Made by a program: the position numbers and the translations under genes
The notes under the pieces: generated by a model
Told to the model about the DNA's origin: nothing
The model's database searches: none
The model's input: the letters and a program-made list of their open reading frames with translations, nothing else
Source of the DNA: an uncultured Bacilli bacterium
Lineage (GTDB): Bacteria; Bacillota_I; Bacilli_A; RF39; UBA660
Length of the DNA stretch: 62,696 bases
Reading direction: 5' to 3'
Assembly: GCA_934153655.1 (NCBI GenBank)
Contig: CAKPFH010000001.1
Span: forward strand, 1 to 62,696
Shown: positions 36,119 to 37,089 of the stretch, one piece after another
Layout: each line of letters opens with the position of its first letter
How positions within the stretch are numbered: the stretch's first letter is position 1

Positions 36119-36844
36119 CTACTCTAAACAATAATTATACAATTTACTATGATAATATATTTTAATTCCCTTATATATTTTTTTATTATAAATAGTTTTT
36201 ATACGAGGTGATAAATTATCATAATTCTCATGATTATTACCTACTTCTATATAAATATTAGGATCAAACCTAGCAATTTCTCTATTTAGAAATATCATAA
36301 ATTGATTAACATCATTAGTAATGTCAAAATACTTTTTCATTAATCCTTGGCACTCTAAACTACTATTTTTAATTAATTTAGATAACTCATTATTATTATC
36401 AGTTATTAATTTATAAATACCATATTTTTCTATACTTTTTTTTAGATTTATAAGTTCATTATATAAATTAATATTTTCTTTATCTACTTTATATTTTAAA
36501 AATTCTAAAACTACACTTTTTGTGTCAATTTTAAAACTTTCATCTATTTTTTTTAATTTACCAATTAAATCATCTATTTCAAACTCTATTTCTTTTGGAG
36601 TAACACATATTACTTTTTCCTTAGTGTTAAAAGAATTATTTACTTTTTCCTTATTTACATTTTTTTCAATTACTTGTATCTTCTTTTCTCTTTCTTCTAT
36701 TAAATCATCATAATCTTGTAATTTTAAAACAAAATATTTTTTTAGCTGAGCATTTATTTCTTTAACTACTTTTTTTAAAAACAAAAACATTAAAATAGTT
36801 AAAACTAATAATGCAGCAACAATTATTAAAATTGTTTTTTCCAT
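36119..36844 (-). CDS. b/delta-like peripheral-stalk candidate (N-terminal TM plus a long charged helix)
   Basis: 241 aa with a TM (ILIIVAALLVLTILMFLFL) followed by a coiled-coil-like K/E-rich helix. It sits between the c-like and alpha genes, as atpF/atpH do, and its start overlaps the c-like stop (TAATG). Confidence 0.5.
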   Translation of the reverse strand: MEKTILIIVAALLVLTILMFLFLKKVVKEINAQLKKYFVLKLQDYDDLIEEREKKIQVIEKNVNKEKVNNSFNTKEKVICVTPKEIEFEIDDLIGKLKKIDESFKIDTKSVVLEFLKYKVDKENINLYNELINLKKSIEKYGIYKLITDNNNELSKLIKNSSLECQGLMKKYFDITNDVNQFMIFLNREIARFDPNIYIEVGNNHENYDNLSPRIKTIYNKKIYKGIKIYYHSKLYNYCLE

Positions 36845-37089
36845 TATATCGTTAAAGGATTAAAGAAAAGTAAGAAGAATACAAAAGCAAATAAGAATAA
36901 CAAAAACATTGTAGCTACTATTAAAATAGTCATTACTGAATGAACAACATCTGCTTTTGTTTCGGGGTTTCTCCCTACTGCTTCAGCAACTTTTGCTCCT
37001 AATAATCCTATTCCAATTCCAAGGCCTAAAAATGCAAGACCTAACATAATACCTATTGCTATTATTGTTTGAGATAAAATACTTTCCAT
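36844..37089 (-). CDS. atpE: Fo c-subunit-like hairpin protein lacking the ion-binding carboxylate
   Basis: 81 aa. Helix 1 is G-rich ([15 protein letters not shown]) and the polar loop GRNPE matches canonical ARQPE. Helix 2 ([29 protein letters not shown]) has no Asp or Glu; the position aligned to the essential Glu is Thr. Confidence 0.7.

What the first reader, a model, noticed from the sequence alone, without database searches (positions are those of the whole stretch)
36844..37089. c-subunit-like protein without the essential carboxylate, and no subunit a: the rotor-ring homologue cannot use the canonical ion path
Seen in the sequence: the 81-aa protein has the c-subunit hairpin layout, with a Gly-rich helix 1 ([10 protein letters not shown]) and the loop GRNPE (canonical ARQPE). 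Helix 2 ([29 protein letters not shown]) contains no Asp or Glu. Counting 18 residues from the loop Pro, where Bacillus PS3 c has its Glu, gives Thr. No ORF in the cluster resembles subunit a; there is no LRL(F/G)GN-type Arg helix in a 5-6 TM protein of about 230 aa.

Established knowledge: proton or sodium translocation by Fo requires the c-ring carboxylate and the a-subunit Arg.

Inference: the module is probably uncoupled from ion translocation and uses the c-like and b-like proteins as a membrane anchor or structural rotor. This fits an ATP-hydrolysing mechanical role.
Basis: partly seen in the sequence, partly recalled or inferred. Interest (0 to 1): 0.8.

Follow-up and report, generated by a model that had tools for sequence, protein, structure and literature searches.

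The report
Rotary ATPase with ion-blind c-ring
This is a complete second, F-type-ATPase-like motor whose membrane rotor protein has lost every ion-binding residue and which has no ion-channel subunit. It always sits among giant cell-surface proteins in gut Bacilli, Clostridia and a Bifidobacterium. It most likely burns ATP to move surface machinery rather than to pump ions, and I found no description of it outside mycoplasmas.

Summary
The 81-aa ORF (36844-37089, minus strand) is a true ATP-synt_C homologue (33.4 bits; cut-off 24). Thr60 sits in the column of the essential Glu/Asp, and the other Na+/H+ ligand positions are hydrophobic. Among the 120 closest relatives that column is T, A or S and never acidic. 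Five relatives have E/D one residue earlier. No subunit a is detectable in the cluster or the window.

The gene belongs to a tightly packed 11-gene unit. It encodes two giant surface proteins, two smaller single-pass proteins, c-like, a b-delta-like fusion stalk, alpha, gamma, beta, a short epsilon and a fast-evolving 5-TM protein with no conserved Arg.

The same cassette occurs in low-GC gut Bacilli, Clostridia MAGs (41-43% GC) and the isolate Bifidobacterium colobi LC6 (60% GC). Its alpha and beta are 60-71% identical across these hosts but about 40% identical to a canonical F1. Catalytic, DELSEED-like and rotor-contact motifs are kept, and c-like dN/dS is 0.1-0.2.

Best reading: an ATP-driven, ion-uncoupled rotary motor that acts on surface proteins. 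It is a functional analogue and possible evolutionary link to the mycoplasma Type 2 (gliding) and Type 3 (MIB-MIP) F1-like ATPases, but not a member of either. The mechanical output is inferred.

The parts
38469..43637 (-). g1722: giant (1722 aa) protein with an N-terminal TM/signal anchor; first gene of the cassette
   Evidence: ORF. Pfam gives only sub-threshold fn3-like hits. Orthologues precede the c-like gene in L007, L008, L010, L013-L015, L018 and L020. Its N-terminal module is homologous to p240 (hhalign 89.8%, E 1.8e-6) and to g451N.
37104..38459 (-). g451N: 451-aa single-pass protein (N-terminal TM, extracellular fn3-like C-terminal half)
   Evidence: weak fn3 hit. Conserved directly upstream of the c-like gene in all complete loci. 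Shares the juxtamembrane module with g1722 (hhalign 91.3%, E 9.7e-7).
36844..37089 (-). c81: c-subunit homologue (the finding). Hairpin with GxGxGxG helix 1 and GRNPETK loop; Thr60 in place of the ion-binding Glu/Asp
   Evidence: PF00137 33.4 bits vs gathering score 24. Alignments to solved c subunits. Column statistics. dN/dS 0.10-0.23.
36119..36844 (-). b241: peripheral-stalk candidate. N-terminal TM plus long helix (b-like), then a helical bundle and C-terminal beta domain (delta/OSCP-like). Its start overlaps the c81 stop by 1 nt.
   Evidence: AF2 model, pLDDT 74.6. 28 of the top 29 Foldseek PDB hits are delta/OSCP or mycobacterial b-delta chains; best E 0.045, each hit weak on its own. 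The C-terminal motif IYxGIKIxYxNKxYDYSL aligns to the delta motif LIGGMVIRIGDRVVDSSI. No Pfam hit.
34815..36131 (-). alpha-like subunit (438 aa from TTG, or 431 aa from ATG at 36110). Walker A GDKKTGKT and Arg-finger motif SVSRLGG kept; N-terminus shortened and about 60 C-terminal residues missing.
   Evidence: PF00006 239 bits. Below every NCBIfam equivalog cut-off. Alignment to canonical alpha. PDB ranking.
34058..34822 (-). gamma-like subunit (254 aa)
   Evidence: PF00231 88 bits vs 39.9. N- and C-terminal helices align to canonical gamma.
32694..34049 (-). beta-like catalytic subunit (451 aa). Walker [16 protein letters not shown], Walker [11 protein letters not shown] and DELSNDD loop are present.
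   Evidence: (TIGR01039 463.3 vs cut-off 462.85).
32450..32734 (-). epsilon-like subunit: beta-sandwich only (94-aa ORF; gene callers start at Met12, giving 83 aa). Lacks the C-terminal inhibitory helices.
   Evidence: Aligns to the N-terminal domain of canonical epsilon. Called as 83 aa in L001-L006. Conserved in all loci.
31896..32447 (-). m183: fast-evolving 5-TM membrane protein with a basic C-terminal tail. Candidate membrane stator or partner; not a recognisable subunit a.
   Evidence: Family alignment A1: only F14 and K172 invariant; Arg66 not conserved. hhalign vs canonical a: 0.18%. AF2 pLDDT 77.7. No Foldseek PDB match; best E 3.1.
31181..31903 (-). p240: single-pass protein with a conserved extracellular domain (invariant P86, P106, D146-G147, Y151, S172, D187)
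   Evidence: Alignment A5. Homologous to the N-terminal module of g1722. Fused to the m183 homologue in L015.
22643..31099 (-). g2818: giant (2818 aa) protein with N-terminal and C-terminal TM segments; last gene of the cassette
   Evidence: ORF. Only a weak fn3 hit. Homologues follow p240 in L014, L015 and L018. Absent in L020.

Best explanation
The 81-aa protein is the rotor-ring subunit of a second, specialised F-type ATPase that no longer moves ions.

Proposed mechanism.
1. An alpha3-beta3 head hydrolyses ATP and turns gamma-epsilon.
2. Gamma-epsilon grips the strictly conserved GRNPETK loops of a ring of c-like hairpins.
3. The head is held still by a membrane-anchored b-delta fusion stalk (b241), probably together with the 5-TM protein m183.
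4. The ring has no carboxylate, no other ion ligands and no subunit a. Its rotation relative to the stalk therefore cannot be coupled to the canonical H+/Na+ path.
5. Instead the torque or conformational cycle is passed to the co-encoded single-pass proteins p240, g451N and g1722, which share one juxtamembrane module, and to g2818. These display giant fn3/Ig-like arrays on the cell surface. The output would be movement, tensioning or resetting of surface proteins.

Shown by tools: homology of all F1 parts and of c; loss of the ion site; absence of a detectable subunit a; conservation and cross-phylum spread of the whole cassette; purifying selection on c81.

Inferred: ring formation, rotation, the stator role of m183, and the coupling to the surface proteins.
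For: 1. c81 is a real c subunit with the ion site erased. PF00137 is above cut-off. Thr60 is in the Glu column, and Q/S/T/Y ligand columns are I/M/F/F. There is no acid in that column in 120 relatives or in the Clostridia/Bifidobacterium orthologues. Carboxylate-less relatives extend down to 33% identity.

2. No subunit a. No subunit-a family was reported for any cluster ORF. Nothing was found in the whole window. m183 has no conserved Arg or acid, no profile similarity to a and no structural match.

3. The motor is intact. Beta keeps Walker A/B, the catalytic GERxREG and DELSNDD; alpha keeps its Walker A and Arg finger. Gamma and epsilon are present. The c loop R40-N41-P42-E43-T44-K45 is invariant or nearly so in 120 relatives. 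G22/G24/G26/G28 are invariant.

4. A stalk is kept. The b241 model is a TM helix plus delta-like bundle and beta domain. Its PDB fold hits are almost all delta/OSCP or b-delta fusion chains, and it carries a delta-like C-terminal motif.

5. It is a functional unit. Eleven genes are separated by overlaps or gaps of 81 bp or less. c81 dN/dS is 0.10-0.23. The same cassette is found in low-GC Bacilli, in Clostridia MAGs at 41-43% GC and in B. colobi LC6 at 60% GC. Alpha/beta are 60-71% identical within the group against 40-41% to a canonical F1.

6. It is always linked to giant surface proteins and to paralogous single-pass proteins.

7. Precedent. Mycoplasma Type 2 and Type 3 F1-like ATPases lack Fo ion machinery and serve gliding and antibody-cleavage systems (PMC3369863, PMC11864180, PMC12994834).
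Against: - There are no experimental data on this family.
- The b-delta assignment rests on individually weak Foldseek hits (E 0.045-1, TM 0.16-0.31) and a pairwise hhalign E of 0.068.
- Five of 120 relatives carry E/D at position 59, so some ion binding in a sub-lineage cannot be excluded.
- Polar residues D47, H/Q/R50, S51 and T54 at the cytoplasmic end of helix 2 are conserved and unexplained.
- Genomes could not be searched for atpB or for a canonical atp operon.
- Co-location with giant proteins does not prove physical coupling. L020 and L021 lack the downstream giant.
Confidence: 0.55

Rival explanations
1. Non-rotary use. The F1-like head, tethered by c81 and b241, acts as a membrane-anchored ATPase that helps export, insert or assemble the neighbouring giant proteins. 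This would be analogous to the FliI/FliJ export ATPase. The c-ring would serve only as an anchor or platform.
For: Alpha/beta also score against FliI/YscN models, through general family similarity. All four partner proteins have N-terminal signal anchors and must cross the membrane. Epsilon lacks its regulatory helices and alpha lacks its C-terminal end, so the enzyme is remodelled.
Against: A gamma with both coiled-coil helices, a DELSEED-like loop, a conserved gamma/epsilon-binding loop on c, and a separate peripheral stalk are all kept. That is the full equipment for rotor-versus-stator motion and is more than a passive anchor needs. Similarity to true F1 is far higher than to FliI (463 vs 223 bits for beta).
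Confidence: 0.2
2. A non-canonical ion pump. The ring still carries ions through other residues (Thr60, H/Q50-S51-T54, or E/D59 in some lineages), and m183 acts as a novel channel subunit.
For: Thr60 is polar and frequent (99/120). Five relatives have E/D59. m183 is a multi-pass membrane protein encoded where a stator subunit could be.
Against: Column 60 is A in 14 of 120 relatives, and positions 59-60 are VV in Bifidobacterium. No polar or charged membrane residue of m183 is conserved across the family; only F14 and K172 are invariant and identities fall to 13%. H50 is replaced by Q or R. E/D59 lies one residue (about 100 degrees) off the canonical site, with identical loop-to-NP spacing. The conserved polar residues sit near the cytoplasmic end of helix 2, not mid-membrane.
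Confidence: 0.1
3. c81 is a carboxylate-free filler subunit that enters the ring of the organism's canonical F1Fo. It would be like the carboxylate-free hairpin of A. woodii c1 in its hybrid ring, and would change the ion/ATP ratio.
For: The best PDB hit is the A. woodii c1/c2 system, where one hairpin lacks the Glu (visible in the alignment: 'vaqttgiy').
Against: c81 is encoded with its own alpha, beta, gamma, epsilon and stalk, in a cassette that moves between phyla as a block. Its helix 2 has diverged at all ligand positions. No a subunit or carboxylate-bearing c is in the cassette.
Confidence: 0.03
4. A decaying duplicate of the atp operon, with no function.
For: Loss of subunit a and of the carboxylate, and truncated alpha and epsilon.
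Against: All ORFs are intact. c81 dN/dS is 0.10-0.23. 1647 database relatives were found. c-like identity is 68-81% across Bacilli, Clostridia and Bifidobacterium despite GC contents of 24-60%. Catalytic motifs are intact.
Confidence: 0.02

Closest known systems
Mycoplasma mobile Type 2 'G1-ATPase' (gliding motor; MMOB1610-1670; PDB 9io5)
   Same: An extra F1-derived alpha/beta/gamma/epsilon set besides normal bioenergetics. No recognisable ion-translocating Fo. Thought to pass ATP-driven rotary force through the membrane to giant surface proteins (Gli349, Gli521) (PMC11864180). MMOB1620/GliD is hypothesised to derive from a b-delta fusion (PMC7052211), and b241 looks like such a fusion.
   Different: Type 2 has a 12-TM protein and no c or membrane-anchored b homologue (PMC3369863); here a bona fide c subunit and a TM-anchored stalk are kept. 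NCBIfam Type 2 models are far below cut-off (398 vs 600; 400 vs 850). Beta lacks the N-terminal dimerisation extension. Alpha/beta are closer to canonical Firmicutes/Fusobacterium F1 than to G1 (386 vs 322 bits; 310 vs 294 bits). At least some hosts are likely walled: the window encodes a MurD-type Mur ligase, L018/L020 carry spore-protein genes and L014 is from a Bifidobacterium isolate.
Mycoplasma Type 3 'F1-like X0' ATPase (MSC_0614-0620 / MMCAP2_0575-0581), needed for the MIB-MIP antibody-cleavage system
   Same: A membrane-associated F1-like ATPase with highly hydrophobic, charge-free membrane partners. It is genetically linked to surface proteins and proposed to energise their conformational reset (PMC12994834).
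   Different: Different accessory genes (12-TM protein, 2-TM large protein, small cytoplasmic protein) and no c or b homologues. The MSC_0618/0619 models are below cut-off (408 vs 570; 301 vs 520). No MIB/MIP-like genes are present here.
Canonical bacterial F1Fo ATP synthase (atpBEFHAGDC), e.g. the operon in L017 or Fusobacterium nucleatum F1 (6q45)
   Same: Gene order c-b(delta)-alpha-gamma-beta-epsilon. All F1 motifs. The c hairpin with GxGxGxG, an RxPE loop and a C-terminal NP(F/L). Beta just reaches the TIGR01039 cut-off.
   Different: No subunit a and no separate delta. c lacks the carboxylate and all Na+/H+ ligands. Epsilon lacks its C-terminal helices and alpha is truncated. Extra conserved genes are present (m183, p240, g451N and the giant proteins).
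Acetobacterium woodii hybrid c-ring (c1 double hairpin with one carboxylate-free hairpin; PDB 4bem)
   Same: Closest solved sequences to c81. Shows that a hairpin without the Glu can be built into a rotor ring.
   Different: In A. woodii the ring still contains carboxylate-bearing c2/c3 and works with subunit a as a Na+ machine. Here the only c gene of the cassette is carboxylate-free.
N-ATPase (alternate F1Fo; atpDCQRBEFAG)
   Same: A second, horizontally mobile F-type operon found in addition to the housekeeping enzyme.
   Different: N-ATPases keep subunit a and a full Na+-binding c, and add AtpQ/AtpR. The TIGR03322/03305/03324/03323 models are far below cut-off here (15.9 vs 130.85, 413 vs 752, 342 vs 750, 22.7 vs 282).

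Membership tests
F/V-type ATPase proteolipid, Pfam ATP-synt_C (PF00137) | Profile match above the curated gathering score over the whole hairpin | tested here: met
   33.4 bits vs 24, residues 10-74 on profile 1-59/60. Precomputed PF00137 on all 120 listed relatives.
F/V-type ATPase proteolipid, Pfam ATP-synt_C (PF00137) | Gly-rich helix 1 (GxGxGxG) and a polar cytoplasmic loop R-x-P-E/D | tested here: met
   G22, G24, G26, G28, R40, P42 and E43 are invariant or nearly so in 120 relatives.
Functional F-type c subunit (F0F1 ATP synthase subunit C equivalogs) | Conserved Glu/Asp in the middle of helix 2 (ion-binding carboxylate) | tested here: not met
   Thr60 in that column by phmmer and MAFFT. 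The family has T/A/S there; Bifidobacterium has V.
Functional F-type c subunit (F0F1 ATP synthase subunit C equivalogs) | Score above an NCBIfam equivalog cut-off | tested here: not met
   Best is NF005363, 37 bits vs cut-off 71. TIGR01260 gives 22 vs 43.95.
Canonical F1Fo ATP synthase operon | Subunit a (atpB) with the essential Arg helix, encoded with c | tested here: not met
   No subunit-a family was reported for any of the nine cluster ORFs scanned. No phmmer hit in the window (best E 0.09). m183 vs a: hhalign 0.18%, no conserved Arg, no fold match. The rest of the genome is not testable here.
Canonical F1Fo ATP synthase operon | Catalytically competent alpha3beta3 with gamma and epsilon | tested here: met
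   Motifs. PF00006, PF00231. Beta TIGR01039 463.3 vs 462.85. Alpha is below its cut-offs (403 vs 554).
Canonical F1Fo ATP synthase operon | Peripheral stalk (b plus delta) | tested here: inconclusive
   No Pfam b or OSCP hit. The AF2 model has a TM helix plus a delta-like bundle and beta domain, and 28 of the top 29 Foldseek hits are delta/OSCP or b-delta chains at weak E-values. A delta-like C-terminal motif is present.
Mycoplasma Type 2 (G1) F1-like ATPase | Alpha/beta matching the MMOB1660/MMOB1670 family models | tested here: not met
   398 vs 600 and 400 vs 850 bits. G1 subunits rank below canonical F1 in PDB searches.
Mycoplasma Type 2/Type 3 F1-like X0 ATPases | Seven-gene cluster with a 12-TM protein, a small cytoplasmic protein and a large protein with two C-terminal TM segments; no c or b homologue (PMC3369863, PMC12994834) | tested here: not met
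   The cluster here has c81, TM-anchored b241, 5-TM m183 and single-pass p240/g451N. No 12-TM ORF is present.
Mycoplasma Type 3 F1-like X0 ATPase | Alpha/beta matching the MSC_0619/MSC_0618 family models | tested here: not met
   301 vs 520 and 408 vs 570 bits.
N-ATPase (alternate F1Fo) | Matches to alt_F1F0 subunit models, and presence of atpQ/atpR/atpB | tested here: not met
   All alt_F1F0 models are far below cut-off. No such genes are in the cluster.
Ion-uncoupled, ATP-driven mechanical F1-like motors (functional class, not a sequence family) | ATP hydrolysis drives surface proteins without ion translocation | not testable with these tools
   Only indirect support: loss of the ion site, an intact motor, and constant linkage to giant surface proteins.

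The most novel reading that the evidence does not exclude
A previously undescribed family of complete rotary F-type ATPases (c-ring, b-delta stalk, alpha3beta3-gamma-epsilon) that has given up ion coupling altogether. It would transmit ATP-driven rotation across the membrane to giant cell-surface proteins, for example through single-pass helices riding on or in the ion-blind c-ring. The family has spread between phyla in at least partly walled Gram-positive gut bacteria. It would be the missing evolutionary link between the ATP synthase and the mycoplasma gliding (Type 2) and MIB-MIP (Type 3) motors, and a new kind of trans-envelope mechanical actuator.
Probability: 0.45. Interest if true: 0.9.

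Novelty: new variant of a known kind. Interest (0 to 1): 0.8.

Why it matters
[quoted passage not shown] How they connect to the membrane is an open question.

- This cassette shows a related solution in common gut Bacilli and Clostridia, and in a cultured Bifidobacterium isolate. The classical rotor ring and stalk are still recognisable, but the ion site and subunit a are gone.
- That gives a tractable system for asking what a rotary ATPase does when it is not moving ions. B. colobi LC6 is a cultured isolate. The proteins are small and well conserved.
- It suggests how the ATP synthase could have been converted step by step into the gliding and MIB-MIP motors.
- It flags about 1600 database proteins, of which the named ones among those listed are annotated 'F0F1 ATP synthase subunit C' or 'F-type H+-transporting ATPase subunit c'. 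Metabolic reconstructions of gut MAGs may therefore wrongly credit these organisms with an extra, or their only, ion-coupled ATP synthase.

Tried and rejected
- **m183 as a divergent subunit a: rejected.** No conserved Arg or acid. hhalign vs canonical a 0.18%. The AF2 model (pLDDT 77.7) has no PDB fold match; best E 3.1, with ATP synthase membrane chains only at E >= 7.4.
- **Pfam b/OSCP detection for b241: nothing.** Tested on the single sequence and on 17 family members. A PDB profile search also found nothing relevant. The assignment rests on structure prediction and one motif.
- **hhalign of b241 vs canonical b:** no signal.
- **Database searches for m183 and b241 relatives:** The search for homologous proteins with the m183 profile and with b241 returned only 8 proteins each. 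The alignments used for structure prediction were therefore shallow.
- **p240 family vs PDB sequences:** no hit.
- **PADLOC defence models for seven cluster proteins:** no hit.
- **Promoter scan:** uninformative in 24% GC DNA; counts equal the shuffles.
- **Rfam:** no riboswitch or other regulatory RNA in front of the cassette.
- **Literature searches for this cassette outside mycoplasmas:** nothing found. A search for RF39/Mollicutes ATP synthase papers gave no direct statement.
- **Carboxylate displaced by an alignment shift: rejected.** The loop-to-NP spacing is identical to A. woodii c2 and the alignment is ungapped.
- **Pseudogene or decay: rejected** on conservation and dN/dS.
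Full report
**1. The observation**

The ORF at 36844-37089 (minus strand) encodes the 81-aa protein [81 protein letters not shown]. It matches Pfam ATP-synt_C above the curated threshold: 33.4 bits against 24, covering profile positions 1-59 of 60. 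It also matches many solved c subunits. The best are the Acetobacterium woodii c1/c2 proteins (4bem), followed by chloroplast and Ilyobacter c. It stays far below every NCBIfam 'F0F1 ATP synthase subunit C' equivalog cut-off, for example 37 against 71 bits.

The phmmer alignment to A. woodii c2 has no gap from the loop to the C-terminal NP(F/L) motif. It places Thr60 opposite the ion-binding Glu, and the spinach alignment does the same. MAFFT with five reference c subunits gives the same column.

The columns of the other ligands of the Na+-type site are hydrophobic here:
- Gln -> Ile27
- Ser -> Met61
- Thr -> Phe62
- Tyr -> Phe65

So the whole site is erased, not just one residue.

**2. Is the loss conserved?**

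The database search found 1647 relatives at E <= 0.001. The best 120 are nearly all 81 aa long and 75-100% identical. In these, column 60 is T (99), A (14) or S (7) and never acidic. The GxGxGxG glycines and the loop R40-N41-P42-E43-T44-K45 are essentially invariant.

Orthologues from Clostridia MAGs and from Bifidobacterium have LT, LA or VV at positions 59-60 and no acid anywhere in helix 2. An exhaustive search of 50%-identity representatives found further carboxylate-free single-hairpin relatives down to 33% identity (P0165, P0182, P0188, P0190, P0199, P0211).

There is one caveat. Five of the 120 relatives carry Glu (4) or Asp (1) at position 59, one residue before the canonical column. 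Their genes lie in the same a-less cassette (L018, L020/L021).

Pairwise dN/dS of c81 against orthologues is 0.10-0.23. Six metagenome contigs encode the identical protein, and five of them differ from the window only by synonymous changes; the sixth is identical in DNA too. The protein is therefore under purifying selection.

**3. The surroundings**

c81 lies in a run of eleven minus-strand genes from 43637 down to 22643. They are separated by overlaps or by gaps of at most 81 bp.

| Gene | Coordinates | Nature |
|---|---|---|
| g1722 | 38469-43637 | giant, N-terminal TM |
| g451N | 37104-38459 | single-pass |
| c81 | 36844-37089 | c-like (the finding) |
| b241 | 36119-36844 | stalk candidate |
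| alpha-like | 34815-36131 | F1 |
| gamma-like | 34058-34822 | F1 |
| beta-like | 32694-34049 | F1 catalytic |
| epsilon-like | 32450-32734 | F1, short |
| m183 | 31896-32447 | 5-TM |
| p240 | 31181-31903 | single-pass |
| g2818 | 22643-31099 | giant, N- and C-terminal TM |

Pfam and NCBIfam identify alpha, beta and gamma. Epsilon aligns to the beta-sandwich of a canonical epsilon but lacks its C-terminal helices.

The catalytic machinery is intact:
- Beta keeps [25 protein letters not shown] and a DELSNDD loop.
- Alpha keeps GDKKTGKT and the Arg-finger motif SVSRLGG.
- Alpha has a shortened N-terminus and lacks about 60 C-terminal residues.

No ORF of the cluster matched a subunit-a model in either library scan. 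phmmer with a canonical subunit a, taken from the ordinary atp operon in locus L017, finds nothing in any window ORF; the best E is 0.09.

**4. The two accessory membrane proteins**

m183 is conserved in position in every complete locus but evolves fast, with 13-32% identity. Only F14 and K172 are invariant. The single TM arginine of the window protein (R66) is E, N, S, K or M elsewhere. Profile comparison with subunit a is null (0.18%). An AlphaFold2 model (pLDDT 77.7, pTM 0.70) has no significant match in the PDB; the best E is 3.1. I find no support for m183 being a subunit a or an ion channel.

b241 has no Pfam match. Its model (pLDDT 74.6) has these parts:
- a TM helix continuing into a long helix (residues 2-66)
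- a disordered linker
- a helical bundle (93-192)
- a small beta domain (197-240)

28 of the top 29 Foldseek hits are delta/OSCP subunits or the mycobacterial b-delta fusion. The E-values are individually weak (0.045-1). Its conserved C-terminal motif IYxGIKIxYxNKxYDYSL aligns with the delta motif LIGGMVIRIGDRVVDSSI. I read b241 as a b-delta fusion stalk, with moderate confidence.

**5. Distribution**

A scan of one genome per species recovered the cassette in three kinds of host:
- uncultured low-GC Bacilli or 'Mollicutes' (L007-L012, L016; 25-30% GC)
- a 'Roseburia' MAG and a Lachnospiraceae MAG (41% and 43% GC)
- the isolate Bifidobacterium colobi LC6 (60% GC)

Within this group alpha and beta are 60-71% identical and c is 68-81% identical. 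Against the canonical F1 of L017, alpha and beta are 40-41% identical. Because GC content matches each host, the cassette has been transferred between phyla and has then adapted to each host's composition.

The cassette varies between hosts:
- Gene order: gamma follows m183 in L008, L009, L011, L012 and L016.
- Fusions: m183 and p240 are fused in L015.
- Size: alpha is 890 aa in L020.

The core set does not vary. The window itself has 23.6% GC. It encodes a MurD-type Mur ligase, RecA and enolase. Related contigs carry CotZ and SASP genes. At least some hosts are therefore probably walled, spore-forming bacteria rather than mycoplasmas. Sources name close relatives 'Bacilli bacterium' or 'Candidatus (Allo)scybalousia intestinigallinarum'.

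**6. The surface partners**

g1722, g451N, p240 and g2818 all start with a basic stretch plus a TM helix. They have only weak fn3-like Pfam signals.

Profile comparison shows that p240, the N-terminus of g1722 and the N-terminus of g451N share one juxtamembrane module. g1722 against p240 gives 89.8% probability, E 1.8e-6, over 159 columns. g451N against g1722 gives 91.3%, E 9.7e-7. Three paralogous 'TM helix + membrane-proximal domain' proteins next to a rotor ring suggest a defined assembly on the outer face of the membrane. This is inference.

**7. Mechanism**

Shown:
- an intact F1-type motor
- a c subunit able in principle to pack as a ring (glycine motif)
- a strictly conserved gamma/epsilon-contact loop on c
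- a probable stalk
- no ion site and no subunit a
- a cassette under selection that travels with giant surface proteins

From established knowledge of F-ATPases, ion translocation needs the c carboxylate and the subunit-a arginine. The canonical path is therefore unavailable.

Keeping both a rotor (gamma-epsilon-c) and a stalk makes sense only if relative rotation is still the output. A mere anchor would not need both. I therefore favour an ATP-driven rotary device that acts on the co-encoded surface proteins (confidence 0.55). Rivals are:
- a non-rotary export or assembly ATPase (0.2)
- an unconventional ion pump using Thr60, E59 or m183 (0.1)
- a filler subunit for the housekeeping ring (0.03)
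- a decaying duplicate (0.02)

**8. Comparison with known systems**

The closest functional analogues are the mycoplasma Type 2 (gliding 'G1-ATPase') and Type 3 (MIB-MIP-associated 'F1-like X0') ATPases (PMC3369863, PMC11864180, PMC12994834). Those have a 12-TM protein and no c or membrane-anchored b homologue. [quoted passage not shown]

The present cassette fails their family models. Its alpha and beta are nearer to canonical Firmicutes/Fusobacterium F1 than to the solved G1-ATPase. It is also not an N-ATPase.

The Miyata group proposed that MMOB1620 arose from a b-delta fusion and MMOB1610 from a and c (PMC7052211). A cassette with a recognisable b-delta fusion and an ion-blind c fits as an intermediate form.

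Full-text searches found no description of this cassette.

**9. Verdict**

This is a new variant of a known kind, the F1-like ATPases re-used as mechanical motors. It is of high interest because the classical rotor and stator parts are still visible and a cultured host exists. Function, rotation and coupling remain to be shown.

Noticed in passing
window 7478-12514 (-): A 1678-aa protein with an N-terminal prepilin-type methylation motif (N_methyl), four MBG (YGX) domains and an SH3_3 domain. It is a giant pseudopilin-like protein and sits next to several small ORFs that may form a pilus or competence-like locus.
   Followed up: no
window 45374-45559 (-), 48732-49076 (+), 17894-18057 (+): A 6S RNA lies directly upstream of the sigma-factor gene (44651-45349) that precedes the cassette. 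A tmRNA and two tRNAs are also present. The terminator-like hairpin at 45426-45408 falls inside the 6S RNA.
   Followed up: no
window 43726-45349 (-); L001-L006: A DUF2752 protein and a zinc-ribbon/DUF4234 membrane protein sit immediately upstream of g1722 in the window and in all six near-identical contigs. A sigma-70-family factor (regions 2-4) precedes them in the window and in L001-L005; in L006 acetate kinase/DHH/GTPase/SepF genes lie there instead. Possible dedicated regulators or partners.
   Followed up: no
P0179, P0181, P0183, P0189, P0196, P0198, P0201, P0204: Many database proteins are covalent fusions of 3-5 c-subunit hairpins (250-435 aa). One is 1139 aa with 14 matched stretches. 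Most hairpins keep the Glu, but some have Gln, Gly or Asn instead. These are multi-hairpin rotor proteins of unknown origin, since the library gives no names or context.
   Followed up: partly
L018:10001-10246, L020:10001-10246 (P0035, P0072, P0095, P0101, P0104): A minority of c81 orthologues carry Glu or Asp at position 59, one residue before the canonical carboxylate column. They are in otherwise identical cassettes without subunit a. This could be neutral tolerance, a remnant or a regained function.
   Followed up: partly
L020:11010-13682, L021:11010-13673: The alpha-like gene is about 890 aa here, twice the usual length, and this version of the cassette lacks the downstream giant protein. 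The extra domain was not analysed.
   Followed up: no
L008, L009, L011, L012, L016; L015:14823-16040: Gene-order variants of the cassette. Gamma is moved to after m183 in five Bacilli genomes, and p240 is placed before c in L008. The m183 and p240 homologues are fused into one 405-aa protein in a Lachnospiraceae MAG, which supports a physical association of the two.
   Followed up: partly
c81 residues 62-76 (window about 36859-36906): The outer half of helix 2 is an almost invariant Phe/Leu array, [10 protein letters not shown](F/L)LL(F/Y)F. It is more conserved than expected for purely lipid-facing residues. The extracellular N-terminus (M1, E2, L5, T8) is also conserved. Both hint at protein contacts around or above the ring.
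   Followed up: no
L017:15757-18354: Directly downstream of the canonical atp operon of Lachnospiraceae bacterium XPB1003 lies an 865-aa protein with an N-terminal TM segment. It was not examined further.
   Followed up: no
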